Of a DNA stretch of 64,000 bases, positions 6,392 to 60,857 are shown in pieces. Position numbers and translations under genes: made by a program. Positions within the stretch are counted from its first letter, which is position 1. Each line of letters starts with the position of its first letter. Origin of the DNA: an uncultured Acidimicrobiia bacterium (GTDB taxonomy: Bacteria > Actinomycetota > Acidimicrobiia > Acidimicrobiales > CAIXPF01); the NCBI GenBank assembly GCA_903921205.1, contig CAIXPF010000205.1, forward strand, positions 26,657 to 90,656, written 5' to 3'. The notes below the pieces were generated by a model. It was given only the letters and a program-made list of their open reading frames with translations, was not told where the DNA came from and did not search any database.

Positions 6392-6724
6392 GCCCACCGC
6401 AACCGCCGCCCGCCGTTGTCGCAGCGCCCCTCCGCCGGAGGAACGCGGGATCGCAATGATCCTAACGGGCGGCGAGCATGGTGACCCGGCCGGGCCGGCA
6501 GTTGTCGGCGTCGAGGGGTCGGGGTCCCCGGCTGCACGGCCCGAGCGCTGCACAGCGGTTCCCGAACACGCCGGCGCCGCAAGCGCCCGGCCTCCGCCGG
6601 CCTCCGCCGGTGCCGGCTGTGATGTTGCCGGCTGTGCCGATGGGTGGCGTGACGATGCGGCATGGTGGTTGCTCACCGGGGATCATCGCGGGGTGCGCCG
6701 CCGGCGCAGTCGGGAAGGAGCCAG

Positions 6725-8635
6725 ATGGGCAACGTGGCGACGGCATTCTGCGCGACCCTGGTCGACGAGTGGGTCCGGGGCGGGCTCGTCGAGGCGTTCA
6801 TCGCACCCGGCTCGCGATCGACGCCATTGGCGTTGGCCCTCGCGGGCCATCCCGGGGTCCGCGACGAGATCGTCCTCGACGAGCGGGTTGCCGGGTTCAT
6901 GGCGCTGGGGTCGGCGTTGGCGTCGGGGCGGCCGGCGGTCGTGCTCACGACATCGGGCACCGCGGTCACCCATCTGCACGCGGCCGTGGTCGAGGCGCAT
7001 CTTTCCGAGGTGCCGCTGCTGGTGTGCACCGCCGACCGGCCTCCCGAGTTGTACGGCGTCGGTGCGGCGCAGACCATCGAACAGCAGCGGATCTTCGGCA
7101 CCGCGGTGCGCGCCTACCTCGATCTCGGCGTGCCCGACGAGCACAATCGCAACGCCTGGCGGTCCCTGGCCGCCCGATCGTTGGCCGAGACGACCGGTTC
7201 GCCGGCGGGCCCCGTGCAACTGAACCTCAGCTTCCGCGAACCGCTGGTGGGCGACGGCGGCCCGATCCCGCCCGGCCGCTCCGACGGACGACCCTGGCAT
7301 CGGCGGGTCGTGCCGGCGGCCACCCCGTCCGATGCGTTGCTCGCCGAGTTGGCCGGATCCTGGATCGGTCGACGAGGGGTGTTCCTGGCGGGAGCGGGGG
7401 TCGACGATCCTCAGGCGGTGCTGGATCTGGCCGAGGAGCTGGGCTGGCCGGTGTTGGCCGAACCCCGCAGCAACACCCGCATCGCCGCGCCCGTGGTCGT
7501 CGCCCATGCCGATGCCATCATCCGGGTGCCGGCCTGGTCCGAACGGCTACGGCCCGAGGTGGTGGTGCAGCTGGGCCAGATGCCCGCATCGAAGGTCCTC
7601 GCCGGCTGGACGAAGGCAGCGGTTTCGGTGCCCGACGTGCCCGACGTGCCCGGCCCGACCGGGCCGACCGGGTCCAATGGCGCGATGCCGGCCGAGCGGG
7701 TGGTCGTGAACGAGGCGGGTTCGTGGTGGGACCCCGACCGCCAGGCTGGGCTGGTCGTGGCCTGTACGCCGGGCCGTCTCGCCGCTGCGCTGTGCGAACG
7801 GCTGCGGGCCGAGCGTGCGCACCACGACGGGTCGTCCTGCGGTGCCGGGTCGGCCGCCGGATCCGACGCGTCGCTGCAGCGATTCGACGTCGATTCGCGG
7901 CCCGCGGGATGGCTTGCTGCCTGGCGCGCCGCCGATGGTGCAGCGGCGAGCGCCCTCGAAGAGGAACTGGCCCGTGGCGCGGACGAGGCCCTGCCGAGCG
8001 AGCCGGCGGTTGCCCGGGCCGCTGCTGCGGCCGCTCACCGCCATGGTGCCGGGGCCCTGGTCGTGTCCTCGTCGATGCCCGTTCGTGACCTCGAGTGGTA
8101 CCTGCCCCGGGCCCCACTCGGCGACAATCCCCCACCCGTGTTGTCCAATCGCGGCGCGAACGGAATCGACGGGGTCGTGTCCACGGCGATCGGTGCGGCC
8201 GTCGCCCTGGCTCCGGCACCGGTCTGGGTGCTGATCGGCGACCTTGCCTTCTTGCACGACAGCAACGCCCTGCTGAACCTGGCCGAGCGCAACATCACGG
8301 TGCGGCTGGTGATCGTGGACAACCGCGGCGGCGGCATCTTCTCGTTCCTGCCGCAGGCCTCCGTCGTGGAGACGGCCACTTTCGAGCGCTTGTTCGGGAC
8401 CCACCAGCAGCTCGATCCGGCGGCGCTGCTGCGGGCGCACGACATCGAGACGGTCGAGCTCGATCGCACCGACCGGCTCGAGCGGGGCCTCGAGGAACTG
8501 GTGCGTTCCACCGCTGCGGTCGCAGCGCTGGTGGTCCGCACCGGCGACCGGGCGTCGAACGTGGCGGCCCATGACCGCCTCCATGCCGCCGTGTCCGCTG
8601 CCCTGGCGACGGTGCCGCCTGCCGACGGGGTCTGA
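6725..8635 (+). CDS. menD: SEPHCHC synthase (thiamine-diphosphate dependent)
   Basis: The ATG at 6725 is preceded by GGAAGGAG. The N-terminus reads GSRSTPLALAL, and the ThDP-binding motif is GDLAFLHDSNAL...VIVDNRGGGIF. The ORF appears longer than I expect for MenD, with low-complexity inserts at about 7620-7900. Confidence 0.9.
   Translation: MGNVATAFCATLVDEWVRGGLVEAFIAPGSRSTPLALALAGHPGVRDEIVLDERVAGFMALGSALASGRPAVVLTTSGTAVTHLHAAVVEAHLSEVPLLVCTADRPPELYGVGAAQTIEQQRIFGTAVRAYLDLGVPDEHNRNAWRSLAARSLAETTGSPAGPVQLNLSFREPLVGDGGPIPPGRSDGRPWHRRVVPAATPSDALLAELAGSWIGRRGVFLAGAGVDDPQAVLDLAEELGWPVLAEPRSNTRIAAPVVVAHADAIIRVPAWSERLRPEVVVQLGQMPASKVLAGWTKAAVSVPDVPDVPGPTGPTGSNGAMPAERVVVNEAGSWWDPDRQAGLVVACTPGRLAAALCERLRAERAHHDGSSCGAGSAAGSDASLQRFDVDSRPAGWLAAWRAADGAAASALEEELARGADEALPSEPAVARAAAAAAHRHGAGALVVSSSMPVRDLEWYLPRAPLGDNPPPVLSNRGANGIDGVVSTAIGAAVALAPAPVWVLIGDLAFLHDSNALLNLAERNITVRLVIVDNRGGGIFSFLPQASVVETATFERLFGTHQQLDPAALLRAHDIETVELDRTDRLERGLEELVRSTAAVAALVVRTGDRASNVAAHDRLHAAVSAALATVPPADGV
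7880..7897. repeat. Core repeat copy 1 (CGATTCGACGTCGATTCG), in frame inside menD
   Basis: This is the exact reverse complement of the cores at 28470 and 59506. It is translated as (Q)RFDVDSR. After the core, the reverse complement continues CTGCAG, similar to the CTGCGAG that follows copy 4. Confidence 0.85.
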
Positions 8636-17635: not shown

Positions 17636-18196
17636 TCAGCCGGCGAGGGGGAACCCGACGGCCTCTCGGCGCCGGCTGACGCCGGGTTCGCCGGTGCTGT
17701 TCCACTCGTAGACCCCACGGCGTACCCGGCGCGCCCGGCCCTGTTCGACCTCGTACGCCAGCGCGTCGGCCAGACCCTTGACCGGGTGCGGGACGGCGAC
17801 CTCGTAGCCGTGCCGATGGAGTAGGGCGTGCAACGCGGACAGTGGGAGTGCGCCACTGGCCCGGAGCAGGGCCGTACAGACCGCGCGGAGGCGCCGACCC
17901 CACAAGGGAACCGCCTGATGGGCCAGCGGCGGAAGCTTCTCTCGGCCTTCGGGGCTCGGCGCGCGTCCACGGCGGTGTCCGAAGTTCGGGAACAGCCTTC
18001 GGCGGTGCTGCTCGAGCCTTTGTCGGAGCTGGGCATGCCGTGCGGCGCGTTCGGCCATCTCTGCCTCGAGGGCGGCGAGCTGTGCCTCGAGCTGGGCACA
18101 TCGATCGATGAGCTCTTGACGGGGTCGGCCGAGCGGGAGGCCGAACTGGCGGACAGGATCGATGCGCCTGTGGTCGAAGGAATCGGCGACGGACAT
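17636..18196 (-). CDS. Hypothetical protein (186 aa): coiled coil plus a C-terminal winged-helix-like region
   Basis: The ATG at 18196 is preceded by AAAGGTGG. It has more A/T-ending codons than the neighbouring genes. No family recognised. Confidence 0.55.
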   Translation of the reverse strand: MSVADSFDHRRIDPVRQFGLPLGRPRQELIDRCAQLEAQLAALEAEMAERAARHAQLRQRLEQHRRRLFPNFGHRRGRAPSPEGREKLPPLAHQAVPLWGRRLRAVCTALLRASGALPLSALHALLHRHGYEVAVPHPVKGLADALAYEVEQGRARRVRRGVYEWNSTGEPGVSRRREAVGFPLAG

Positions 18197-18369
18197 GGCA
18201 ACCACCTTTGGGAGATGGCGTCTCAGAGAGGCCGGAACACGAACGATCGTCTGGCCTGATCGATTCCGGCCAGTATCACCGGCGCCTATGACAGCGAAGA
18301 AGGTCACAATTAGCGATCTCGCCGACGCTCAACGTGAAAATCGTGCTCGGGGAGGGAAGCGCACTGTGC

Positions 18370-18407
18370 CCGCTCGGGGCGAATCGACGTCGATTCGCCC
18401 CGAGCGG
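18370..18407. repeat. Perfect 38-bp palindrome containing core repeat copy 2 (18380..18397)
   Basis: The sequence CCGCTCGGGGCGAATCGAC|GTCGATTCGCCCCGAGCGG is exactly self-complementary, with 19-nt arms. It is intergenic. Its central 18 nt match the core found at 7880, 28470, 28500 and 59506. Confidence 0.9.
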
Positions 18408-18473: not shown

Positions 18474-18671
18474 TCATGCTCGAGGGAGGGTTCGAAGGAG
18501 GCGTTCGAGGCGGCGCACCCCCGAACGCAGGGAGCGTTCTGCTTCCTCGAGTTCGACGGCGTGCTGTTCGGCCTTCACCCGGAACTGCTCGTCGGCCAGG
18601 GCTGCCACACGTGCGGTGAGCTCCTCCAGCGAGGACGTGATGGTGGACAGCTGCGCGGCGAGGCTGGTCAT
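18474..18671 (-). CDS. Possible small coiled-coil protein (65 aa)
   Basis: This is the tail of track ORF 18474..19013, from the ATG at 18671 (MTSLAAQLSTITSSLEELTARVAALADEQF...). Third codon positions are GC-rich, but there is no clear Shine-Dalgarno sequence and no family match. Low confidence. Confidence 0.35.
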   Translation of the reverse strand: MTSLAAQLSTITSSLEELTARVAALADEQFRVKAEQHAVELEEAERSLRSGVRRLERLLRTLPRA

Positions 18672-18742: not shown

Positions 18743-20038
18743 ATGTTGAAGCGACTCGATGTCCGCGGTGTGCCGCTCGAGGCTCTCCGCCACGCCCTAC
18801 CCAAGCCGCTCGCCGCCGGCGAAGAACCGGTCGCCGCCGTTCGAGAGATCCTGGATGCGGTCGAATCGGACGGCGACGAGGCGGTGCGCGCCTACACCGA
18901 GCGATTCGACCAGGTCCGCCTCGAGCAGCTTCGCGTCCCCGCCGAGGAGCTCGTAGCGGCGCTCGCGGGCCTCGACCCGACCACCAGGGCGGCGCTCGAA
19001 GCTGCGGCAGCATCGATCAGGGCGTACCAATCGGCCACGCTCACGCCGCCGCACACCCACGACGCCGACGGGGTGACCATCCGTTCCTGGCGTCAGCCGG
19101 TGGCCCGAGCGGGCTGTTATGTGCCCGGAGGTCGCGCCATCTACCCGTCGACGGTCCTGATGACGGCGATCCCGGCCAAGGTGGCGGGGGTCGAGGAGGT
19201 TGCGCTCTGCGTGCCGCCGAACCGGGAGGGCCGCGTTCCCGCAGTAACGCTTGCAGCTGCCGCCGTCGCCGGGGTGGACGAGGTGTACGCCATCGGCGGA
19301 GCACAGGCCATCGGGGCGCTTGCGTTCGGTACGGAGTCCATCCGGCCGGTGGATGTGATCGTCGGCCCAGGCAACGTGTACGTGGCGATTGCCAAGCGTG
19401 AGGTGGCCGGCCGCGGTCTGGTGGCGATCCCGTCGGCCTTCGCCGGCCCGTCCGAGGTCGTCGTCGTGGCGGACGAGACGGTGCCGGCAGAGTTCGCAGC
19501 CATCGACGTCATCGTGCAGGCCGAACACGGCCCTGACGGCCTGGCGTGGCTGGTCTGTTGGTCGGACAGCGTGGCCGACGCGGTCAGCGCAGCCATCGAG
19601 CGCCTCGTGGAGTCGGCACCACGAAAGACAGAGATCCTCGCGACGCTCGAGCTCAATGGCTATGTGGTCGTGTGCGACGATCCGGCCCAGGCCATCGAGG
19701 TGGCGAACGTCATCGCCCCGGAGCACCTGCAGCTGATGTGCGACGCTGCGATCGCCGAGGTCGATCGGGTCCGCAACGCCGGCGCCGTGTTCCTCGGGCA
19801 GCACGCACCGGCTTCGATCGGCGACTACGCCGCCGGCCCGAGCCACACCCTGCCCACCTACGGTTCCGCCCGCTTCGCCTCGGTGCTCTCGGTGGATGAT
19901 TTCACCAAGCACATGCACACCATCGAGGTGACCCCCTCGGGGTTCGAGCGGCTCGCCCCCCATGTCGTCGCCCTCGCCCTCGCCGAGGGTTTCGACGCCC
20001 ACGCCTCCTCCATCACCCTGCGTCAGGCTGCCCGATGA
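18743..20038 (+). CDS. hisD: Histidinol dehydrogenase
   Basis: 431 aa with a collinear HisD pattern including QAEHGPDG and the C-terminal HisD region. First gene of the his operon. Confidence 0.95.
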   Translation: MLKRLDVRGVPLEALRHALPKPLAAGEEPVAAVREILDAVESDGDEAVRAYTERFDQVRLEQLRVPAEELVAALAGLDPTTRAALEAAAASIRAYQSATLTPPHTHDADGVTIRSWRQPVARAGCYVPGGRAIYPSTVLMTAIPAKVAGVEEVALCVPPNREGRVPAVTLAAAAVAGVDEVYAIGGAQAIGALAFGTESIRPVDVIVGPGNVYVAIAKREVAGRGLVAIPSAFAGPSEVVVVADETVPAEFAAIDVIVQAEHGPDGLAWLVCWSDSVADAVSAAIERLVESAPRKTEILATLELNGYVVVCDDPAQAIEVANVIAPEHLQLMCDAAIAEVDRVRNAGAVFLGQHAPASIGDYAAGPSHTLPTYGSARFASVLSVDDFTKHMHTIEVTPSGFERLAPHVVALALAEGFDAHASSITLRQAAR

Positions 20039-26055: not shown

Positions 26056-26826
26056 GTGTACGCGGTCCGAGTGATCCCCTGTCTCGACGTCGACAACGGT
26101 CGGGTGGTGAAGGGCGTCAACTTCGTCGGCCTCCGGGACGCCGGCGACCCGGTGGAGCTCGCCGCACGTTACGACGCCGAGGGCGCCGACGAGGTCGTCT
26201 TCCTCGACATCACCGCCAGCTCCGACGGTCGTCGGACCATCGTCGACCTGGCCCGTCGCACGGCCGAGACGCTGTTCATCCCGTTCACCATCGGCGGGGG
26301 CATCCGCAGCGTCGAAGACGCCCGGGAACTGCTGCGCGAGGGCGCCGACAAGGTCTCGGTCAACACCGCTGCCGTGCAGCGACCGGAGCTGGTCGACGAG
26401 CTGTCCGTCGAGTTCGGGGCCCAGTGCGTGGTCGTGGCGATCGACGCCCGCCGCAGCGACGCCACCGCCTCGGGCTTCGAGGTGTTCATCCGGGGTGGCC
26501 GGACCCCGACGGGGCTCGACGCCGTTGCCTGGGCGCAGGAGATCGAACGTCGTGGGGCGGGTGAGATCCTGCTCACCTCGATGGACCGCGACGGCACCAA
26601 GGATGGCTTCGACCTGCCGCTCACCCGGACGGTGAGCGAGGCGGTCAACATCCCGGTGATCGCCTCCGGCGGGGTCGGTACCCTCGACCACCTCGTCGAG
26701 GGGGTTCGCGACGGCAAGGCCGACGCAGTGCTCGCAGCGTCGATCTTCCACTTCGGCGAGTACACCGTGGGCGAGGCCAAGGCCACGCTGCGCGACGCCG
26801 GTTTCGCCGTGCGCCCAGCCGACTGA
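26056..26826 (+). CDS. hisF: Imidazole glycerol phosphate synthase, cyclase subunit
   Basis: The GTG at 26056 gives [23 protein letters not shown]..., and the HisF pattern is collinear to the end. I rejected the upstream part of track ORF 25786..26826. Confidence 0.95.
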
Positions 26827-26864
26827 TCGACGGTCGACCGATCGACGGTCGGCCGGTCGGCCGG

Positions 26865-27515
26865 TCAGGTGCTGGCGGAACCGAGCTGTCCGACGAAGGC
26901 TGACACCGCCTCGATCAGGAACGCGCTGTGGCCCCACAGGAAGTGGTCGGCGCCGGCCACCGTGACCACCTCGGTGTTCCTCCATCCGGCCACGGTGGCG
27001 GTCGCCTGGGCCGGCGGGTTGTACTGGTCGTGTTCCGGGCACAGCAGCAGCTTGGGCCGGGGGTCGTCGGCGACCGCGGCGAACCGTTCGGCGGCCACCA
27101 CCCGCAGCGGTGGGGCGATCGGGCTCCAGCCCGCCACCAGCGGGTGCGGCGTGGCCAGCGAGACGTCGGCACCGAAGGACCAGCCGGCGACCACCAGCGG
27201 GACGCTGAGGCCCCGCTCGGCCAGCGCCGCGGCGAGGGCATCGATGGCCGCGGTGACGTCGAACTGCTCGGCGCCGCCCTGGTCGTGGGTGCCGCTCGAT
27301 GCCCCGACGCCCCGGAAGTTGAACCGCAGGGCGGCGATATTCCGCTGGGGAAGGGCGCCGAACAGGGCGTCGGGCACCCCGTCGCGCATCGATCCGCCGT
27401 AGAGCGGGTGGGGATGGCACAACACCGCAGCACCGCGCACGTTCTCGGGGAGATGGATCTCGGCCTCGAGCCGTTCGCCATCGGCGGTCGTGAGCACCAG
27501 CGATTCTGCAGCCAT
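26865..27515 (-). CDS. Alpha/beta hydrolase fold protein
   Basis: The ATG at 27515 gives MAAESLVLTTADGERLEAEIHLP.... Contains HPHPLYGGSM and GWSFGA (a nucleophile-elbow-like motif). 216 aa. Confidence 0.7.
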   Translation of the reverse strand: MAAESLVLTTADGERLEAEIHLPENVRGAAVLCHPHPLYGGSMRDGVPDALFGALPQRNIAALRFNFRGVGASSGTHDQGGAEQFDVTAAIDALAAALAERGLSVPLVVAGWSFGADVSLATPHPLVAGWSPIAPPLRVVAAERFAAVADDPRPKLLLCPEHDQYNPPAQATATVAGWRNTEVVTVAGADHFLWGHSAFLIEAVSAFVGQLGSAST

Positions 27516-28149: not shown

Positions 28150-30447
28150 ATGTCGGAGCAGTCCTCCACGATGAGCCAGCAGTACCGCACCCTCGGTGGA
28201 ATCGTCGTCCACCGAACCGTCGAATCGGTGACCGCGGCGCCGGCCGTCGAGTCCCTCATCGACCGGCTCGATGCCCGCCGCGGGGTGTTGCTGTCCTCGA
28301 GCTACGAGTACCCGGGGCGCTACACCCGGTGGGATCTCGGCTTTGCCGACCCGCCGCTGTCGGTCTGGGCCCGTCAGCGAGAGGTTCACGTCGAGGCGCT
28401 CAACGCCCGCGGTGCCGTGCTGCTGCCGGCCGTCGCTGCGTCTCTCGGCGCGCTCGACCTCGATCGCGCCGAATCGACGTCGAATCGCCCCGACTTCGTC
28501 GAATCGGTGTCGATTCGGCCCGAGGGGATCGACCTCGTCGTCCGCCGCCCCGACCGCCGCTTCGAGGAGGAGGAACGCAGCCGTCAGCCCTCGGTCTTCT
28601 CGGTCGTCCGGACCCTCATCGATCTGTTCCGCTCCCCGGACGACCCCCATCTCGGCCTCTACGGCGCCTTCGGCTACGACCTGGCGTTCCAGTTCGAGGA
28701 GTTGCGGCTCCACCTGGAGCGTCCGGACGAGCAGCGGGACCTCGTGCTGTACCTGCCCGACGAGCTGCTCGTCGTCGATCATCGGCGCGAACAGGGCGAA
28801 CGCCGCCGGTACGACTTCACGGTGAGCGGCGCCGACGGCGCGCCCGTCACGACCCTGGGACTCGAGCGGTCCGGGGTGGCGTTGCGGTACCGGCCGCGGC
28901 CTGCCGTGGCGGCCGGAAGCGATCACCGACCGGGTGAGTACGCCGCCCTGGTCGATGAGGCCAAGGCCTCCTTCCGCCGGGGTGATCTGTTCGAGGTGGT
29001 ACCCGGCCAGTGTTTCACCGAGCCCTGTCCCGCCTCGCCGTCGGAACTGTTCCGTCGCCTGCGCGAGCGCAACCCGTCGCCCTACGGGTTCCTGATCAAC
29101 CTCGGCGAGGCGCCGACGCGCTCGGACCCCGAGGCGGGGGAGTGGCTGGTCGGTGCGTCCCCTGAGATGTACGTCCGGGTCGACGAGGACCGGGTGGAGA
29201 CATGCCCGATCTCCGGCACGATCGCCCGTGGACGCGACCCGATCTCCGACGCCGCCCAGATCCTGGCCCTGTTGAACTCCGACAAGGATGCGTCGGAGTT
29301 GACCATGTGCACCGACGTCGACCGCAACGACAAGTCGCGGATCTGCGTGCCCGGGTCGGTCAAGGTCATCGGCCGCCGCCAGATCGAGATGTACTCCCGG
29401 CTGATCCACACGGTGGATCATGTCGAGGGCCGCTTGCGTCCGGGCTTCGACGCGCTCGATGCCTTCCTCAGCCACACCTGGGCGGTGATGGTGACCGGGG
29501 CGCCGAAGGCGTGGGCGATGCAGTGGATCGAGGCCCACGAACGTTCGCCGCGGGCGTGGTACGGCGGCGCGGTGGGCATGGTCGGCTTCAACGGCAACAT
29601 GAACACCGGCCTGACCTTGCGCACCATCCGGCTGACCGGCGGCGCGGCCCAGGTCCGGGTGGGCGCAACGCTGCTGTTCGACTCCGACCCCGAGGCAGAG
29701 GAGGCCGAGACGCAGCTCAAGGCGTCGGCGTTCCTCGACGCGATCCGCAACCCCGGACCACCCGCAGCCCCTGCCGGAGCGACCCCGGGTCTGCTCAGCG
29801 GGGCGCCCGCCGGTCTGGCCGATGAGCCCGGTGCCGGCCGTCGGGTCCTGCTCGTCGATCACCAGGACAGCTTCGTGCACACCCTGGCCAACTACTTCCG
29901 GGCCACCGGCGCCGAGGTGGTCACGCTGTGCTGCCCGCCGGAAGGAGCAGGCCTCGACCCGGCCGAGCTCGACCGGGTCGCCCCCGATCTGGTGGTGCTC
30001 TCGCCCGGCCCGGGCCGGCCGAGCGATTTCGGCGTGGGCCGGACGATCGCCGCCGTCCTCGAGCGGGGCCTGCCGCTGTTCGGCGTGTGCCTGGGTCTGC
30101 AGGGCATCGTCGAGCACTTCGGTGGCGAGCTCGGCGTGCTGGATCCGCCCATGCACGGGAAGGCCTCGGCGATCGTGGCCGGGTCGACCGCGCTGTTCGC
30201 GGGCCTCCCGTCACCGTTCCTCGCCGGGCGCTACCACTCGCTGTTCGCCCGTGCCGAGCAACTCCCCGATGTCCTGCAGGCCACCGCACACAGCGATGAT
30301 GGGGTGGTGATGGCAATCGAGCACCGCACCCTGCCGGTGTCCGCCGTGCAGTTCCACCCCGAGTCGATCATGTCGCTCGGCGATGAGGCCGGCATGCAGC
30401 TGGTTGCCAACGTGCTACGGACGATGCCGGCGGCGAGACCGACGTGA
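28150..30447 (+). CDS. trpE: Anthranilate synthase, fused component I-component II, TrpE(G) type
   Basis: The ATG at 28150 is preceded by GGAAG. The N-terminus LSSSYEYPGRYTRWD and GAFGYDLAFQFE are typical of fused TrpE(G). The chorismate-binding core has PSPYGF, GTIARG and GGAVG. The C-terminal class I GATase domain has GVCLGLQG and FHPES. Confidence 0.9.
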   Translation: MSEQSSTMSQQYRTLGGIVVHRTVESVTAAPAVESLIDRLDARRGVLLSSSYEYPGRYTRWDLGFADPPLSVWARQREVHVEALNARGAVLLPAVAASLGALDLDRAESTSNRPDFVESVSIRPEGIDLVVRRPDRRFEEEERSRQPSVFSVVRTLIDLFRSPDDPHLGLYGAFGYDLAFQFEELRLHLERPDEQRDLVLYLPDELLVVDHRREQGERRRYDFTVSGADGAPVTTLGLERSGVALRYRPRPAVAAGSDHRPGEYAALVDEAKASFRRGDLFEVVPGQCFTEPCPASPSELFRRLRERNPSPYGFLINLGEAPTRSDPEAGEWLVGASPEMYVRVDEDRVETCPISGTIARGRDPISDAAQILALLNSDKDASELTMCTDVDRNDKSRICVPGSVKVIGRRQIEMYSRLIHTVDHVEGRLRPGFDALDAFLSHTWAVMVTGAPKAWAMQWIEAHERSPRAWYGGAVGMVGFNGNMNTGLTLRTIRLTGGAAQVRVGATLLFDSDPEAEEAETQLKASAFLDAIRNPGPPAAPAGATPGLLSGAPAGLADEPGAGRRVLLVDHQDSFVHTLANYFRATGAEVVTLCCPPEGAGLDPAELDRVAPDLVVLSPGPGRPSDFGVGRTIAAVLERGLPLFGVCLGLQGIVEHFGGELGVLDPPMHGKASAIVAGSTALFAGLPSPFLAGRYHSLFARAEQLPDVLQATAHSDDGVVMAIEHRTLPVSAVQFHPESIMSLGDEAGMQLVANVLRTMPAARPT
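28470..28517. repeat. Core repeat copies 3a (28470..28487, exact) and 3b (28500..28517, 16/18), in frame inside trpE(G)
   Basis: Copy 3a, CGAATCGACGTCGAATCG, is followed by CCCCGA, as in the 18.4-kb palindrome. Twelve nt later comes copy 3b, CGAATCGGTGTCGATTCG, followed by GCCCGAG. Together they are translated as A-ESTSNRPDFVESVSIRPE. Confidence 0.85.
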
Positions 30448-42543: not shown

Positions 42544-42624
42544 GCCCGGGTGGTGGAATGGCAGACACGGAGGACTCAAAATCCTTTGCCGCAAGGCGTG
42601 CGGGTTCGAGTCCCGCCCCGGGCA
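42544..42624 (+). tRNA. tRNA-Leu (anticodon CAA)
   Basis: I folded the cloverleaf by hand. The acceptor stem pairs GCCCGGG with CCCGGGC, with discriminator A. The anticodon stem pairs GAGGA with TCCTT around the loop CTCAAAA. There is a long variable arm (TGCCGCAAGGCGT). The T arm is GCGGG-TTCGAGT-CCCGC. No CCA is encoded. Confidence 0.9.
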
Positions 42625-47044: not shown

Positions 47045-47176
47045 GCGGGTCGGCCGCCGGATGGCGGGGAGGCTCCGGCCCGCCAGGGACTTGCCCGTGC
47101 TGCTAGCCTCTGCAGGTGCGATGGGTATCCCCGTCGTAGTGGTGTCCCATCCCTCGAACAGAAGCCAACTCACATC

Positions 47177-48553
47177 GTGACCGAGCAGACCATCGACCGG
47201 CCCGACGCGGCCGCTCAATCCGCCGGCGGCCCCGCCGGCATGGGTACTTTCGACGACAGCGGCGAGTACCACCCCCGGCAGGTGACCGAGAACGACCTCG
47301 CCGGCATGTCCATGGAGGACGCCTACGCCTCCTCCATGGTCGAAGTCGAGGACGGCCAGATCGTCCAAGGCACCGTCGTCAAGGTCGACCGCGATGAGGT
47401 TCTGCTCGACATCGGCTACAAGTCCGAAGGCGTGATCCCCAGCCGCGAGCTGTCGATCCGCAACGACGTGAACCCGTCCGAGGTGGTCAGCCTCGGTGAG
47501 CACGTCGAGGCCCTCGTCCTGCAGCGTGAGGACAAGGACGGCCGCCTGATCCTGTCCAAGAAGCGTGCGCAGTACGAGCGGGCTTGGGGCCAGATCGAGT
47601 CCATCAAGGAGAACGACGGCTACGTCGCCGGCCCGGTCATCGAGGTCGTCAAGGGTGGTCTCATCATCGACATCGGTCTGCGTGGCTTCCTTCCCGCCTC
47701 GCTGGTCGAGTTGCGCCGGGTCCGCGATCTGCAGCCCTACGTCGGCCAGACGCTCGAGGCCAAGATCATCGAGCTCGACAAGAACCGCAACAACGTGGTG
47801 CTGTCCCGTCGGCTCTTCCTCGAGGAGACCCAGAAGGAACAGCGCGAAGAGTTCCTCGCCAACCTCAAGCCCGGCGAGGTTCGACGGGGCAAGGTCTCCT
47901 CGGTGGTCAACTTCGGTGCGTTCGTCGACCTCGGTGGTATGGACGGACTCATCCACGTGTCCGAGCTGTCCTGGAAGCACGTCGACCATCCGTCGCAGGT
48001 CGTGCAGGTCGGTGACGAGGTCGAGGTACAGGTGCTCGAGGTCGATCTCGACCGCGACCGCATCAGCCTGTCGCTGAAGGCCACCCAGCAGGATCCCTGG
48101 CAGGAGTTCGCCTCCAACCACCGGGTCGGCGAGCTGGTCTACGGCCGGGTCACCAAGCTGGTGCCCTTCGGTGCGTTCGTCCAAGTCGGCGACGGCATCG
48201 AGGGTCTGGTCCACATCTCGGAGATGTCGGCCCACCACGTCGATCTGCCCGAGCAGGTCGTGACCCCGGCCGAAGAGCTGTGGGTCAAGATCATCGACCT
48301 CGACCTGCAGCGCCGCCGGATCAGCCTGTCGATCAAGCAGGCTGCCGAGGGTGGTGTCGTGGCCGCCGAGTACCAGGAGGCGTTCGGCGCCCACATGTAC
48401 GACGACCAGGGCAACTACATCGGCCCGTCCTACGCCGAGGGCGAATACTCCTCCGAGGGCCAGGAGGCCTGGGAGGAGTACTACGCCAGCGGGGAAGAGG
48501 GTGTCGTGGCCGAGGAAGCTGTGGCCGAGGAGGCCGTGGCCGAGGAGGGTTAG
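47177..48553 (+). CDS. rpsA: 30S ribosomal protein S1
   Basis: 458 aa with four S1/OB repeats (for example GTVVKVDRDEVLLDIGYKSEGVIP and GKVSSVVNFGAFVDLGGMDGLIHVSE) and an acidic C-terminal tail. GTG start. Confidence 0.95.
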   Translation: MTEQTIDRPDAAAQSAGGPAGMGTFDDSGEYHPRQVTENDLAGMSMEDAYASSMVEVEDGQIVQGTVVKVDRDEVLLDIGYKSEGVIPSRELSIRNDVNPSEVVSLGEHVEALVLQREDKDGRLILSKKRAQYERAWGQIESIKENDGYVAGPVIEVVKGGLIIDIGLRGFLPASLVELRRVRDLQPYVGQTLEAKIIELDKNRNNVVLSRRLFLEETQKEQREEFLANLKPGEVRRGKVSSVVNFGAFVDLGGMDGLIHVSELSWKHVDHPSQVVQVGDEVEVQVLEVDLDRDRISLSLKATQQDPWQEFASNHRVGELVYGRVTKLVPFGAFVQVGDGIEGLVHISEMSAHHVDLPEQVVTPAEELWVKIIDLDLQRRRISLSIKQAAEGGVVAAEYQEAFGAHMYDDQGNYIGPSYAEGEYSSEGQEAWEEYYASGEEGVVAEEAVAEEAVAEEG

Positions 48554-48594
48554 TGAGGGCTCTCCCTCGCTGACTGCCACGAGCGGAAAACGTT

Positions 48595-48632
48595 CGGTGC
48601 CGGGCCCATTGGGCCCGGCACCGGTGTTTTTC
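48595..48632. terminator. Bidirectional intrinsic terminator (rpsA and the convergent response regulator)
   Basis: A 13-bp stem pairs CGGTGCCGGGCCC with GGGCCCGGCACCG and is followed by GTGTTTTTCG on the plus strand. On the minus strand a GTTTTCC tract follows after a short spacer. Confidence 0.75.
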
Positions 48633-56259: not shown

Positions 56260-56355
56260 GACCGGTGCCGGCCCGGGGGTGTGCCGGTGCTCGGGCGCCT
56301 CGGGGTGCGACGGTAGGCTCGGGCGTTTCCCGGGTGGCGCAGGAGGATCTCGCAC

Positions 56356-59343
<2,988 letters not shown>

Positions 59344-59505
59344 CCGAGCTGTCCTCGGGGGATGCCCGGTCGATCACGTTGCGCGCGCATGTGGCCGTCG
59401 ATGTACGTAGTGCACCGGCTATGACGGTCGGTGAACTCGACCCCGCTCCCGCCGAATTCGCCGAAAAAACCGGACTGAGCAGCAGTTTTAGCGAGTTCGT
59501 CGCAG

Positions 59506-59523
59506 CGAATCGACGTCGAATCG
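59506..59523. repeat. Core repeat copy 4 (CGAATCGACGTCGAATCG), intergenic
   Basis: Identical to copy 3a. It is embedded in a local hairpin that pairs CGCAGCGA with TCGCTGCG. It lies in the 257-nt, relatively AT-rich spacer between convergent uvrA and ribBA. Confidence 0.85.
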
Positions 59524-59600
59524 CTGCGAGCGAAATCCGCTCGGCGCTCCGGGGCGCGGCGAAGAACAGCCACTCTTCGTGGTGGGACGGCGTGGCTGGG

Positions 59601-60830
59601 TCAGCTGGTTTCGAGGTCGAGCAGGTGGCCCATGCGGGCCTGCTTGGTCGCCAGGTAGGCCCGGTTGGTGCCGGTCGGTTCGATCCGGAGCGGCTGTCGC
59701 TCGGTGATCTCGAGGCCGTAGCCGGACAGGCCGCTGTACTTGGCCATGTTGTTGGTCATCAGCCGCATCGACCGAACGCCGAGGTCGACCAGCATCTGGG
59801 CGCCGATCCCGTACTCGCGCGAGTCCACCGGCAGCCCGAGGGCGGTGTTCGCATCGACGGTGTCGAGGCCCTCGTCCTGCAGCTGGTAGGCGCGGATCTT
59901 GTGGGCCAAGCCGATGCCGCGCCCCTCATGACCGCGCAGGTAGATGACCACTCCCTGGCCGGCCTCCGCGATGCGTTGGAGGGCGAGATGGAGCTGGTCG
60001 CCACAGTCGCAGCGGCCGGAGCTGAACACGTCGCCGGTCAGGCACTCGGAGTGCACCCGCACCAGGGGCGCAGTGCCGCTGTCGGGGCCGAGATCGCCAA
60101 GGGTGATGGCCAGATGCTCGGTTCCGTCGAGAATCGAGCGGTAGGCGGTACAACCGAACTCGGCCCACGGGGTCGGCAGCACGGTCGTGGCCACCCGTTC
60201 CACCAGCTGCTCGGTCCGGCGACGATGCCGTACCAGGTCGGCGATGCTGATCATCAGCAGTCCGTGCTCGGCGCAGAACTGCTCCAGCTCGGGCCGCCGG
60301 GCCATGGTTCCGTCGTCGTTGACGACCTCGGCCAGTACCCCGATGGGTGCCGCGCCGGCGAGGATGCACAGGTCGACCGCGGCCTCGGTGTGGCCGGCGC
60401 GCTGCAGGACGCCACCGGGCCGGGCGCGCAGCGGGAAGATGTGGCCCGGGCGGGCCAGGTCGTGGGTGGTCGTCGAGCCCTCGCAGAGCAGCCGCAGGGT
60501 GTGGGCACGGTCCGCCGCCGAGATGCCGGTCGAGACGCCCCGTGCCGCATCGACCGACTCGGTGAACGCGGTACGCATCGACTCGGTGTTGTTCTCGACC
60601 ATCAGGGGAAGCCCCAGCTCGTCGCAGCGCTCGCCCGTCATCGGGGCGCAGACCACCCCCGAGGTGTAGCGGACGAAGAACGCCATGTGCTCCGCGGTGG
60701 CGGCGTGTGCCGCCATGATCAGGTCGCCCTCGTTCTCACGGTCCTCGTCGTCGACCACGACCACGATCTCACCGCGTCCGATGGCTGCGACCGCGTCGTC
60801 GATGGAGGCGAACCCCTGGGGGTTGCTCAT
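59601..60830 (-). CDS. ribBA: Bifunctional DHBP synthase / GTP cyclohydrolase II
   Basis: 409 aa with the RibB motif VVVDDEDRENEGDL and the RibA zinc site SECLTGDVFSSGRCDCG. Confidence 0.95.
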   Translation of the reverse strand: MSNPQGFASIDDAVAAIGRGEIVVVVDDEDRENEGDLIMAAHAATAEHMAFFVRYTSGVVCAPMTGERCDELGLPLMVENNTESMRTAFTESVDAARGVSTGISAADRAHTLRLLCEGSTTTHDLARPGHIFPLRARPGGVLQRAGHTEAAVDLCILAGAAPIGVLAEVVNDDGTMARRPELEQFCAEHGLLMISIADLVRHRRRTEQLVERVATTVLPTPWAEFGCTAYRSILDGTEHLAITLGDLGPDSGTAPLVRVHSECLTGDVFSSGRCDCGDQLHLALQRIAEAGQGVVIYLRGHEGRGIGLAHKIRAYQLQDEGLDTVDANTALGLPVDSREYGIGAQMLVDLGVRSMRLMTNNMAKYSGLSGYGLEITERQPLRIEPTGTNRAYLATKQARMGHLLDLETS

Positions 60831-60857
60831 AGAGGTGCTCCTCGGTTCAGGGCGAAG

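What the first reader, a model, noticed from the sequence alone, without database searches (positions are those of the whole stretch)
7880..7897. Core repeat copy translated in frame inside menD
CGATTCGACGTCGATTCG is the exact reverse complement of the 18-mers at 28470 and 59506. It differs at 2 of 18 positions from the centre of the 38-bp palindrome at 18.4 kb. Chance recurrence of an exact 18-mer within 64 kb is negligible. Here it is read as RFDVDSR within a probable insert of MenD. After the core, the reverse complement reads CTGCAG, which resembles the CTGCGAG after copy 4. This suggests a unit slightly longer than 18 nt.
Basis: seen in the sequence. Interest (0 to 1): 0.6.

Follow-up and report, generated by a model that had tools for sequence, protein, structure and literature searches.

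The report
Translated copy of Acidimicrobiia palindromic repeat
The 18-base sequence inside menD is a real copy of a short palindromic repeat scattered through Acidimicrobiia genomes, mostly just after genes, and here it sits in a floppy linker of the enzyme and is translated as a harmless passenger.

Summary
CGATTCGACGTCGATTCG occurs exactly at 7880(+), 28470(-) and 59506(-). Near copies lie at 18380 and 28500. Chance predicts about 0.

The menD copy is read in frame as RFDVDS. It lies in a low-confidence, length-variable loop between the middle and C-terminal TPP domains.

The core is C-GAWTC-GACGTC-GAWTC-G: two heptamers always 4 nt apart, with no stop codon in any of six frames. It belongs to a repeat family that is not described in Rfam or in the searched literature. 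101 of 117 genome hits were Acidimicrobiia, with at least 13-15 exact copies in single MAGs.

Intergenic copies lie a median of 76 nt after stop codons. Convergent gene pairs are enriched and divergent pairs depleted. These copies cap long DNA-symmetric hairpins whose outer stems differ between copies but co-vary. They have no U-tract.

Copies inside genes (menD, fused trpE-trpG, dnaX) occupy variable or insert regions. They are inherited vertically, vary from 1 to 3 tandem units, and decay at synonymous sites in some lineages.

No transposase or RAYT was found, so the spreading mechanism is unknown.

Verdict: a new REP/TRIT-like family with RPE-like translated copies.

The parts
7880..7897 (+). 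18-bp core copy (TT type, CGATTCGACGTCGATTCG). It is translated in frame as R-F-D-V-D-S (residues 386-391 of the 636-aa MenD).
   Evidence: Every codon is identical in the 85%-identical orthologue L118.
7871..7901 (-). Extended repeat unit around the menD core. On the minus strand it reads GCCG-core-CTGCAGCGAC. The right flank matches the 59506 copy (core-CTGCGAGCGA) apart from one indel.
   Evidence: family D16. It forms only a weak hairpin: the RNA fold z-score is +0.78.
6725..8635 (+). menD (SEPHCHC synthase) CDS. An alternative upstream start lies at 6662.
   Evidence: Pfam TPP_enzyme_N, TPP_enzyme_M_2 and TPP_enzyme_C. TIGR00173 menD equivalog. The syntenic locus of the 85%-identical relative shows a men-type neighbourhood of UbiA, Chorismate_bind, UbiE-type methyltransferase and AMP-binding genes.
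7808..7909 (+). Lineage-specific, length-variable linker of MenD (about residues 362-395) that carries the core at its C-terminal end.
   Evidence: This region is gapped in most orthologues. 21 codons are absent in L120. In the AlphaFold model residues 373-395 are coil, with pLDDT below 50 at 373-375 and 377-389.
18370..18407 (.). 38-bp perfect palindrome CCGCTCGGGG-core(AT)-CCCCGAGCGG. It is intergenic, 67 nt downstream of a conserved 65-aa minus-strand ORF and upstream of hisD.
   Evidence: RNA fold -42.9/-45.5 kcal/mol, z -7.4/-7.8. In the orthologous copy in L118 the core is 17/18 identical and the stem carries three compensatory double changes.
28470..28487 (+). Core copy (AA type) translated as (A)ESTSNR inside the fused anthranilate synthase trpE-trpG.
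   Evidence: It is an insert relative to orthologues outside Acidimicrobiia. It is exact in L124 and has 1 mismatch in L125 and L123.
28500..28517 (+). Older, slightly decayed core copy (CGAATCGGTGTCGATTCG) translated as (V)ESVSIR, 30 nt downstream of the previous copy.
   Evidence: It is orthologous to VESTSIRP in most Acidimicrobiia trpE orthologues listed. In L126 it has decayed to CGAGTCGACGTCGATCCG while coding the same amino acids.
59500..59529 (.). 30-bp palindrome TCGCAG-core(AA)-CTGCGA with an A.A mismatch. It lies between the convergent genes uvrA (56317-59343, +) and ribBA (59601-60857, -).
   Evidence: Fold z -3.6/-5.4. No U-tract terminator was found.

Best explanation
The menD 18-mer is one copy of a short interspersed palindromic repeat family that is shared across the class Acidimicrobiia. 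The core is two pseudo-palindromic heptamers, CGAWTCG, separated by exactly 4 nt (consensus ACGT). The conserved unit is about 26 bp: GCGK-core-MCGC.

Shown. Most copies are intergenic, typically 15-130 nt after a stop codon and preferentially between convergent genes. There the core forms the apex of a long, DNA-symmetric hairpin. The outer stem is specific to each genome or copy but stays complementary, so the family behaves like REP or TRIT elements. The core has no stop codon in any of the six frames. A minority of copies lie inside genes and are translated. The three intragenic cases examined (menD, trpE-trpG, dnaX) sit in variable linker or insert regions. The menD copy is one of these. 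It sits at the end of a lineage-specific, predicted-unstructured loop between MenD domains II and III. It is inherited vertically and has no extended stem or stable fold.

Inferred. The menD copy is a tolerated passenger for the enzyme. Its exact sequence is kept by the same process that keeps the whole family uniform. That process would be recognition of the core by an unidentified trans-acting protein (a hairpin- or palindrome-binding transposase or other binding factor), with or without gene conversion between copies. The intergenic hairpins probably act as 3'-end structures: mRNA stabilisers or factor-assisted bidirectional terminators or insulators.
For: Statistics in the window. There are five copies with 0-2 mismatches and nothing at 3-4.

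Clade distribution: 101 of 117 genome loci are Acidimicrobiia, with 13-15 exact copies in single MAGs. There is only 1 hit in 2.9 M viral contigs.

Location: 39 of 135 copies fall in CDS and 96 are intergenic. Among intergenic copies with both neighbours known, 27 are between convergent genes, 38 between tandem genes and 6 between divergent genes. The median distance from the upstream stop is 76 nt.

Hairpin flanks: about 35 of 135 copies have at least 5 extra Watson-Crick pairs. The covariation score is 0.233 against 0.150 +/- 0.008 in shuffles and at most 0.139 when slid. At the orthologous 18380 site the core is 17/18 identical, the flanks are about 55-60% identical, and there are three compensatory stem changes. 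Stem families are genome-specific, for example CCGTACGCGT-core-ACGCGTACGG.

Strict 4-nt spacing of the heptamers: 159 cases against 0 at 0-1 and 5-10 nt and 16 in total at the other spacings tested (2, 3, 11, 12, 14, 15 nt).

Intragenic behaviour: the menD linker is variable and low-confidence in the model. The trpE insert has 1-3 units. dnaX carries copies in an Ala/Pro-rich stretch between conserved regions. Copies occur in all three frames and both orientations.

DNA-level conservation: rare codons GAA/AAT/ATT/CGA/GAT are retained in copies, while genes differ at about 40% of synonymous codons. In L126 the copy decays by synonymous substitutions that raise third-position GC.
Against: No transposase or recurrent neighbouring gene was found. 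E. coli RayT has no tblastn hit in 1.04 Mb of motif-bearing loci. There is no GTAG 5' signature and no consistent target-site duplication.

The W:W position inside the stem is mismatched in 76 of 120 copies. That is odd for a purely structural hairpin.

The stems show no G.U against C.A strand asymmetry (8 v 6), so an RNA-level role is not demonstrated. There is no U-tract, whereas a canonical terminator does exist elsewhere in the window (48586-48632).

A same-position, same-frame variant persists in a 59%-identical MenD. This could mean the intragenic copy is itself functional rather than a passenger.

The copy number in the window's own genome could not be measured.
Confidence: 0.7

Rival explanations
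1. The core is the operator of a dimeric DNA-binding regulator or nucleoid protein: two half-sites 11 bp apart on duplex DNA. The menD, trpE and intergenic copies are all bound sites of one regulon or of a chromosome-organising system.
For: The two pseudo-palindromic heptamers are spaced by exactly one helical turn. A/T at the heptamer centre varies freely, and AA/TT mismatch types are in the majority (76 of 120), as expected if duplex DNA rather than a hairpin is recognised. The stems are strictly Watson-Crick and strand-symmetric. The core is conserved across a whole class. The intragenic copy persists in a distant MenD orthologue.
Against: Copies are depleted between divergent genes (6 of 71) and concentrated downstream of stop codons. 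That is the opposite of promoter-proximal operators. An operator does not need the copy-specific complementary flanks 8-14 bp beyond the site, or their compensatory evolution. Neighbouring genes have no common function.
Confidence: 0.12
2. The menD copy, and the other intragenic copies, is a functional cis-element acting on its host gene. Candidates are a pause or attenuation site, an RNase site, or a recombination or replication hairpin. It would be kept by selection on menD expression.
For: The core and the preceding CAG are identical in an orthologue with 85.5% nucleotide identity, while surrounding linker residues change. A palindromic variant lies at the same codons in a 59%-identical orthologue.
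Against: The menD copy has no stable structure (z +0.78). Orthologues at 62-72% identity lack it. In trpE the number of units varies from 1 to 3, and in one lineage the unit decays by synonymous changes. Only 7 codons are involved, which gives P of about 0.1 from synonymous conservation alone.
Confidence: 0.08
3. The motif is a DNA-uptake-type signal (like DUS/USS). It would accumulate by biased uptake and recombination rather than by transposition. That would explain unique flanks, vertical inheritance, copies tolerated in variable parts of proteins, and inverted arrangements resembling terminators.
For: No transposase was found. Copies lie at orthologous positions. Intragenic copies sit in poorly conserved protein segments. 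The motif is conserved across the clade.
Against: The density is low, roughly 1 per 13-30 kb here, against about 1 per kb for DUS/USS from established knowledge. There is a strong extragenic bias. Genome-specific extended palindromes recur as units. A roughly 170-nt composite element occurs in one MAG. Both point to copying of whole units. Competence in Acidimicrobiia is not documented, to my knowledge.
Confidence: 0.06
4. Coincidence or protein-level convergence: the 18-mers recur because of codon usage or a shared peptide motif.
For: TCGA-rich words are common in this 70% GC genome (TCGWCGA occurs 86 times).
Against: 0 of 100 shuffles gave even one exact match. The copies are read in different frames and strands as unrelated peptides, and two copies are non-coding. 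They use codons that are rare in this genome.
Confidence: 0.01

Closest known systems
REP / BIME / REPIN elements with RAYT transposases (Enterobacteria, Pseudomonas, Stenotrophomonas)
   Same: Both are short (about 20-40 nt) imperfect palindromes present in many copies. Both lie mostly just downstream of genes or between convergent genes, independent of orientation. Both form within-genome families that drift between lineages. One MAG (BC3.65) has inverted doublets resembling REPINs. A stem mismatch is common.
   Different: There is no conserved 5' GTAG. No RAYT or Y1 transposase was found. The inner 18-26 bp is conserved across a whole class, whereas REP sequences usually differ between species. 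The conserved part is the hairpin apex, with variable outer stems. A noticeable share of copies (about 20-29%) lies inside ORFs.
TRIT (Tuberculosis Rho-independent terminator motif), Gardner et al. 2011, PMC3152330
   Same: TRIT is a sequence-conserved palindromic hairpin in a high-GC actinobacterial lineage. It has about 10^2 copies, is associated with gene ends, is mostly bidirectional, and lacks a canonical U-tract. Its authors likewise inferred an unknown binding factor. Its function is still unclear: it shows minimal overlap with mapped 3' ends.
   Different: TRIT is restricted to Mycobacterium. It is centred at about -8 relative to the stop codon, whereas the median here is +76 nt. Membership was not tested against the TRIT consensus, so it is treated here only as an analogue. 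TRIT is not reported as in-frame inserts in protein linkers.
Rickettsia palindromic elements (RPE), in-frame insertions in protein-coding genes (my knowledge: Ogata et al. 2000, Science)
   Same: RPEs are palindromic repeats found inside ORFs, translated in frame, and located in protein regions that tolerate insertion. They are inherited vertically and decay over time.
   Different: RPEs are 100-150 bp and add 30-50 residues. Here the unit is 18-30 bp (6-10 residues), most copies are intergenic, and tandem copy number varies.
DNA uptake sequences (Neisseria DUS, Pasteurellaceae USS)
   Same: These are short, clade-specific motifs that often occur as inverted pairs in terminator-like hairpins. 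Intragenic copies prefer poorly conserved protein segments and certain frames.
   Different: They are much denser (about 1 per kb). The conserved sequence forms the stem, not the apex. They depend on competence machinery. None of this is shown here.

Membership tests
REP/REPIN-RAYT | Short imperfect palindrome, multi-copy, predominantly extragenic near gene 3' ends | tested here: met
   Copy number in the window's own genome was not measurable. There are 4 exact copies and 1 near copy in 64 kb.
REP/REPIN-RAYT | Conserved GT[A/G]G tetranucleotide at the 5' end of the palindrome | tested here: not met
   The flank logo gives GCGK-core-MCGC. GTAG or GTAC appears only in some genome-specific stems.
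REP/REPIN-RAYT | Cognate single-copy RAYT (Y1 HUH transposase) gene flanked by REPs | tested here: inconclusive
   E. coli RayT gave no tblastn hit in 1.04 Mb of loci. No recurrent neighbouring protein family was found. Genes flanked by copies are housekeeping. Whole genomes could not be searched.
REP/REPIN-RAYT | Inverted REP doublets (REPINs) replicated as a unit | tested here: inconclusive
   A roughly 170-nt composite with two inverted cores, at least 8 copies, was seen in MAG BC3.65 only, and its spacer is poorly conserved. None was seen in the window.
Canonical intrinsic (Rho-independent) terminator | GC-rich hairpin followed directly by a U-tract | tested here: not met
   No terminator-like site lies at 59300-59650. 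There is no T-run after the 18380 or 59506 hairpins. A canonical terminator exists elsewhere, at 48586-48632.
TRIT (Mycobacterium) | TRIT consensus sequence; position overlapping the stop codon (about -8); genus Mycobacterium | tested here: not met
   The clade is different. The median position here is +76 nt after stops. The TRIT properties are taken from PMC3152330. The TRIT consensus itself was not compared.
Rickettsia palindromic elements | 100-150-bp palindromic element inserted in frame in ORFs of Rickettsia | tested here: not met
   The unit here is 18-30 bp and mostly intergenic. The in-frame, tolerated-insert behaviour is shared.
DNA uptake sequence (DUS/USS) | Preferential uptake by the competence machinery; about 1 copy per kb; many copies in ORFs | not testable with these tools
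   Density is about 1 per 13-30 kb and extragenic bias is strong, which argues against. Uptake bias cannot be tested in silico.
Transcription-factor operator | Sites concentrated in promoter or divergent regions of a coherent regulon | tested here: not met
   Divergent regions hold 6 of 71 copies. Copies sit downstream of stops, and neighbouring genes are unrelated.
Rfam structured RNA families | Match at gathering score | tested here: not met
   At gathering score only a tRNA matches in the window. Around the hairpins there are only sub-threshold generic hairpin matches.

The most novel reading that the evidence does not exclude
The 18-bp core would be the recognition site of a conserved, still unidentified Acidimicrobiia protein that binds the palindrome or its hairpin. 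Binding would turn these elements into factor-dependent, bidirectional 3'-end or insulator signals. The same recognition, through transposition or gene conversion, would keep copies uniform across a whole bacterial class. It would also repeatedly write 6-10-residue modules (RFDVDS, ESTS[NI]RP) into disordered linkers of housekeeping proteins. Some of those intragenic copies, such as the menD site shared by 59%-identical orthologues, would be retained because they are bound as well.
Probability: 0.2. Interest if true: 0.65.

Novelty: new member of a known kind. Interest (0 to 1): 0.45.

Why it matters
Acidimicrobiia are abundant in soil, marine and wastewater communities but poorly studied. No interspersed repeat family or termination signal was found for them in the library searched here.

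A class-wide 18-26-bp palindrome at gene ends provides three things:
- a genomic landmark for annotating gene 3' ends and operon boundaries in these MAG-dominated lineages;
- a defined bait for finding the protein that recognises it, which also bears on the unresolved question of what sequence-conserved, U-tract-less hairpins such as TRIT do in high-GC Actinobacteria;
- a clean example of non-coding repeats being written into, and surviving in, disordered linkers of essential enzymes, which matters for interpreting lineage-specific inserts.

For MenD itself the copy is most likely irrelevant.

Tried and rejected
- Rfam at gathering score over the whole window, and at E-value threshold around both hairpins, gave nothing relevant.
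- Full-text search for the 18-mer and its variants found 0 papers. A search combining REP, RAYT and Acidimicrobiia terms found nothing on this class.
- Looking up the window's own MenD in the assembly index returned not on record, so the source genome could not be censused.
- Clustering of 422 ORFs within 1.5 kb of copies found no recurrent partner.
- ORFs bracketed by two copies are L25/Ctc-like and hemE-like by my reading of their translations, not transposases.
- Pfam on unannotated window ORFs near the copies found no transposase.
- tblastn of E. coli RayT found no hit.
- A search for target-site duplications outside the palindromes found none that were consistent. The TTCGAC repeat around the L126 8655 copy looks coincidental.
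- The G.U against C.A asymmetry test for RNA-level selection showed no asymmetry.
- AA against TT orientation relative to transcription showed no bias by my hand tally (10 v 12).
- The viral contig scan gave 1 hit, so the motif is not phage-borne.
- A CRISPR-like array was rejected, since at most 2-3 tandem units occur and they are coding.
- A LexA or other known actinobacterial box was rejected from memory only, since the half-sites differ.
Full report
OBSERVATION

CGATTCGACGTCGATTCG is present exactly at 7880-7897 (+). Its reverse complement is at 28470-28487 and 59506-59523. None of 100 dinucleotide-preserving shuffles produced a single match.

Allowing up to 3 mismatches adds only 18380 (1 mismatch, the centre of a 38-bp perfect palindrome) and 28500. 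That makes five sites against 0.22 expected. Treating the two W positions as free, the window has five copies with 0-2 mismatches and none at 3-4, where simulation predicts about 3. The family is therefore sharply bimodal: a copy is intact or absent.

It differs at 1.

The ORF 6662/6725-8635 is MenD. Pfam finds the TPP N, M_2 and C domains. TIGR00173 scores 357.7 bits against a cutoff of 244.2. Position 7880 is a codon start, giving Q-R-F-D-V-D-S-R.

ANATOMY OF THE MOTIF

Of 21 CGAWTCG heptamers in the window, 10 form five pairs spaced exactly 11 nt start to start. None occur at gaps of 0-1 or 5-10 nt, and only 16 in total at the other gaps tested.

The core is therefore C-GAWTC-GACGTC-GAWTC-G. 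It is a palindrome except for the central base of each heptamer, and it has no stop codon in any of the six frames (read directly from the sequence).

The class-wide flank consensus extends the core to about 26 bp, GCGK-core-MCGC. In this window the flanks fall into two sub-types. One is GCAG-core-CTGC(G)AG, at 7880 (reverse complement) and 59506. The other is (CTC)GGGG-core-CCCCGAG, at 18380, and in part at 28470 and 28500.

DISTRIBUTION

Of these, 101 are Acidimicrobiia: Iamiaceae, Microthrixaceae, Acidimicrobiaceae, Aquihabitans and Iamia. Single MAGs carry up to 13-15 exact copies. The 16 hits in other phyla are about what composition predicts for 596 Gb (my estimate of 17-35 chance sites in all).

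Only one hit occurs in 2.9 million viral contigs. Rfam has no matching family. No paper in the library contains the sequence.

CONTEXT

I called genes in the loci by third-position GC content. Of 135 exact copies, 39 fall inside genes and 96 are intergenic. Of the 71 intergenic copies with both neighbours called, 27 lie between convergent genes, 38 between tandem genes and only 6 between divergent genes. The median distance from the nearest upstream stop codon is 76 nt. This is the distribution expected of REP- or terminator-type elements, not of operators.

In the window, the 59506 copy lies between the convergent genes uvrA and ribBA. The 18380 copy lies 67 nt after a conserved 65-aa minus-strand ORF.

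HAIRPINS

About 35 of 135 copies have at least 5 further Watson-Crick pairs outside the core, which by my estimate chance would give at a rate of about 0.002 per copy. Several reach 9-14 pairs, giving 36-46-bp perfect palindromes.

On an ungapped alignment of 120 Acidimicrobiia copies, the covariation score for the full stem is 0.233. Shuffles give 0.150 +/- 0.008 (0 of 500 reach the observed value), and slid controls give at most 0.139.

Outer stems recur within a genome. Examples are CCGTACGCGT-core-ACGCGTACGG in SMAG_U13493 and A. daechungensis, and GTTCAGG-core-CCTGAAC in LS4_71. They differ between genomes.

The orthologous pair, window 18380 and L118 21619, is informative. The surrounding intergenic DNA is only about 55-60% identical, yet the core is 17/18 identical. 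The stem has three compensatory double substitutions: CCG/CGG in the window against TGA/TCA in L118.

The intergenic hairpins are very stable as RNA: 18380 gives -43 to -45 kcal/mol with z about -7.5, and 59506 gives z -3.6 and -5.4. They have no U-tract. A canonical A-tract/hairpin/T-tract terminator does exist after rpsA at 48586-48632.

Two observations caution against a simple RNA-hairpin reading. First, the W:W position is mismatched (A.A or T.T) in 76 of 120 copies. Second, the stems show no excess of G.U over C.A on the sense strand (8 v 6). The palindromes are symmetric at the DNA level.

THE MenD COPY

In an alignment of 19 orthologues, the core lies in a gap-rich stretch between the middle and C-terminal TPP domains. 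Of the 120 listed homologues, four (P0001, P0002, P0007, P0009) carry R[IF]xx[DE]S there; about 20 others could not be anchored in that scan.

The three relatives with DNA available compare as follows:
- The relative with 85% identical MenD (L118/L119, syntenic) has the identical 18-mer plus the preceding CAG. All 7 codons are identical, against 72% identical synonymous codons gene-wide, and the neighbouring linker residues differ.
- The 72% relative (L120) lacks 21 codons, taken here to be just upstream. By my own reading of its sequence, which was not computed, it retains about 11 of 18 core bases, essentially one half-site, GATTCG.
- A 59% relative (L122) has a perfect 30-bp palindrome at the same codons and in the same frame: TCGCAG-CGAATCG-GCGC-CGATTCG-CTGCGA. 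Its flanks match those of the window's 59506 copy.

The copy is therefore old and vertically inherited, with decay in some lineages. The alternative is that the site is a recurrent target.

An AlphaFold2 model (mean pLDDT 80.6) places residues 373-395 in coil, with pLDDT below 50 at 373-375 and 377-389, between helices 349-372 and 396-420. RFDVDS is residues 386-391. Unlike the intergenic copies, the menD copy has no stem extension and no unusual folding energy (z +0.78).

OTHER INTRAGENIC COPIES

The 28470 and 28500 copies lie in the fused anthranilate synthase (TrpE-clade3) and read AESTSNRP-DF-VESVSIRP. Orthologues from other phyla have no such segment. Acidimicrobiia orthologues have one, two or three ESTS[NI]RP units.

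At the DNA level these units are the core. They are exact or have 1 mismatch in L124, L125 and L123, and they retain the rare codons GAA, AAT and ATT, although the genes are only 76-78% identical. In L126 the single unit has become CGAGTCGACGTCGATCCG. That is GAA to GAG and ATT to ATC, with the same amino acids. This is the decay expected once DNA-level maintenance is lost.

In another MAG, two tandem copies 30 nt apart read AESTSNRPGPAESTSNR in what reads as the Ala/Pro-rich linker of a DnaX (tau)-like protein; no family search was run on it.

Intragenic copies occur in all three frames and both orientations.

Presence/absence polymorphism also exists at orthologous intergenic sites. The hisF/hydrolase spacer is 160 nt with a 42-bp palindrome in L126, but only 13-39 nt with no copy in L124 and in the window.

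MECHANISM

Shown: this is a clade-wide family of copies with genome-specific extended units, located at gene 3' ends, with maintained palindromic stems, turnover at orthologous sites, and translated copies in the variable regions of the three proteins examined.

Not shown: how the copies spread or what they do. No transposase or recurrent neighbouring gene was found. There is no GTAG signature and no target-site duplication. One MAG has a roughly 170-nt composite with two inverted cores, which resembles a REPIN or MITE.

My best reading, at about 0.7 confidence, is a REP/TRIT-like interspersed palindrome. Its conserved apex would be recognised by an unidentified protein. Its hairpins would serve as, or at least be tolerated as, 3'-end structures. 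The menD copy would be a neutral, translated passenger.

Rivals:
- a duplex-DNA operator or nucleoid-protein site (0.12), supported by the one-turn spacing and mismatch tolerance but contradicted by location and co-varying flanks;
- a functional intragenic element in menD (0.08);
- an uptake-type signal (0.06);
- chance (0.01).

COMPARISON AND NOVELTY

The family works like REP/BIME and like the mycobacterial TRIT motif (PMC3152330; function still unsettled). Its intragenic copies behave like Rickettsia palindromic elements on a smaller scale.

It fails the defining tests for membership of each:
- no GTAG or RAYT (REP);
- a different clade and a different position relative to stops (TRIT; the consensus sequences were not compared);
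- the wrong size (RPE);
- no U-tract (intrinsic terminator).

It is best filed as a new family of a known kind. Interest is moderate. The menD copy itself is ordinary once the family is recognised. The family, conserved across a whole class with a strict two-heptamer architecture, is a usable handle on gene-end biology in Acidimicrobiia.

Noticed in passing
window 28470-28517; L123 742-830; L124 10366-10413; L125 6331-6378; L126 10189-10206: The fused anthranilate synthase carries 1-3 tandem translated core units (ESTS[NI]RP), depending on lineage. In L126 the unit has decayed by synonymous substitutions that raise third-position GC while coding the same amino acids.
   Followed up: yes
L042 7040-7230, L057 5010-5200 and six other loci of MAG BC3.65 (JAWKIM01): A roughly 170-nt composite repeat: CCTTCGCGCT-core(TT)-GAATTGGTCGTGAGACACGAAG, then a variable stretch of about 85 nt, then core(AA)-CCGCCGAAGG. 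It has at least 8 copies. It looks like a REPIN, a MITE or a small RNA gene. The 22 nt after the left core are highly conserved and unexplained.
   Followed up: partly
alignment A2, columns 18 and 29 (the W positions of the core): The two heptamer centres are mismatched (AA/TT) in 76 of 120 copies. The TA type is rare (8) compared with AT (36). This is non-random relative to independent half-sites, although related copies within genomes inflate the statistic.
   Followed up: partly
window 48586-48632: A canonical bidirectional intrinsic terminator (A-tract, 23-nt arms, T-tract) lies just after the S1 (rpsA)-like gene at 47045-48553 (not checked against a protein-family library). So this organism uses classical terminators as well as the U-less core hairpins.
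   Followed up: no
window 17636-18199 (-): A 187-aa ORF (only a sub-threshold ZapB-like Pfam match) lies next to the 18380 palindrome. It is absent from the same nth-hisD spacer in relatives L120 and L124, so it is an accessory insertion adjacent to the repeat.
   Followed up: partly
window 18477-18671 (-); L120 20888-21085; L124 471-668: A 65-aa minus-strand ORF with no Pfam match lies immediately upstream of hisD. A 65-aa minus-strand ORF is called at the same position in three related loci. The sequences were not aligned.
   Followed up: no
L066 1559-1606: Two tandem core copies 30 nt apart are translated as AESTSNRPGPAESTSNR in an Ala/Pro-rich stretch of a protein that reads like DnaX (tau), judged by eye without a family search. 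The spacing is the same as in the window's trpE pair, but the gene is different.
   Followed up: partly
L126 8568-8730 against window 26826-26865 and L124 8752-8765: Presence/absence polymorphism at an orthologous convergent spacer. In L126 the spacer is 160 nt of lower-GC DNA with a 42-bp core palindrome. In the relatives it is 13-39 nt with no copy.
   Followed up: partly
window 18862-18908: Two isolated CGAWTCG heptamers lie 40 nt apart inside hisD. They are probably chance, because the family spacing is strictly 11 nt start to start.
   Followed up: no
window 42544-42624: A tRNA gene, the only Rfam gathering-level hit in the window.
   Followed up: no
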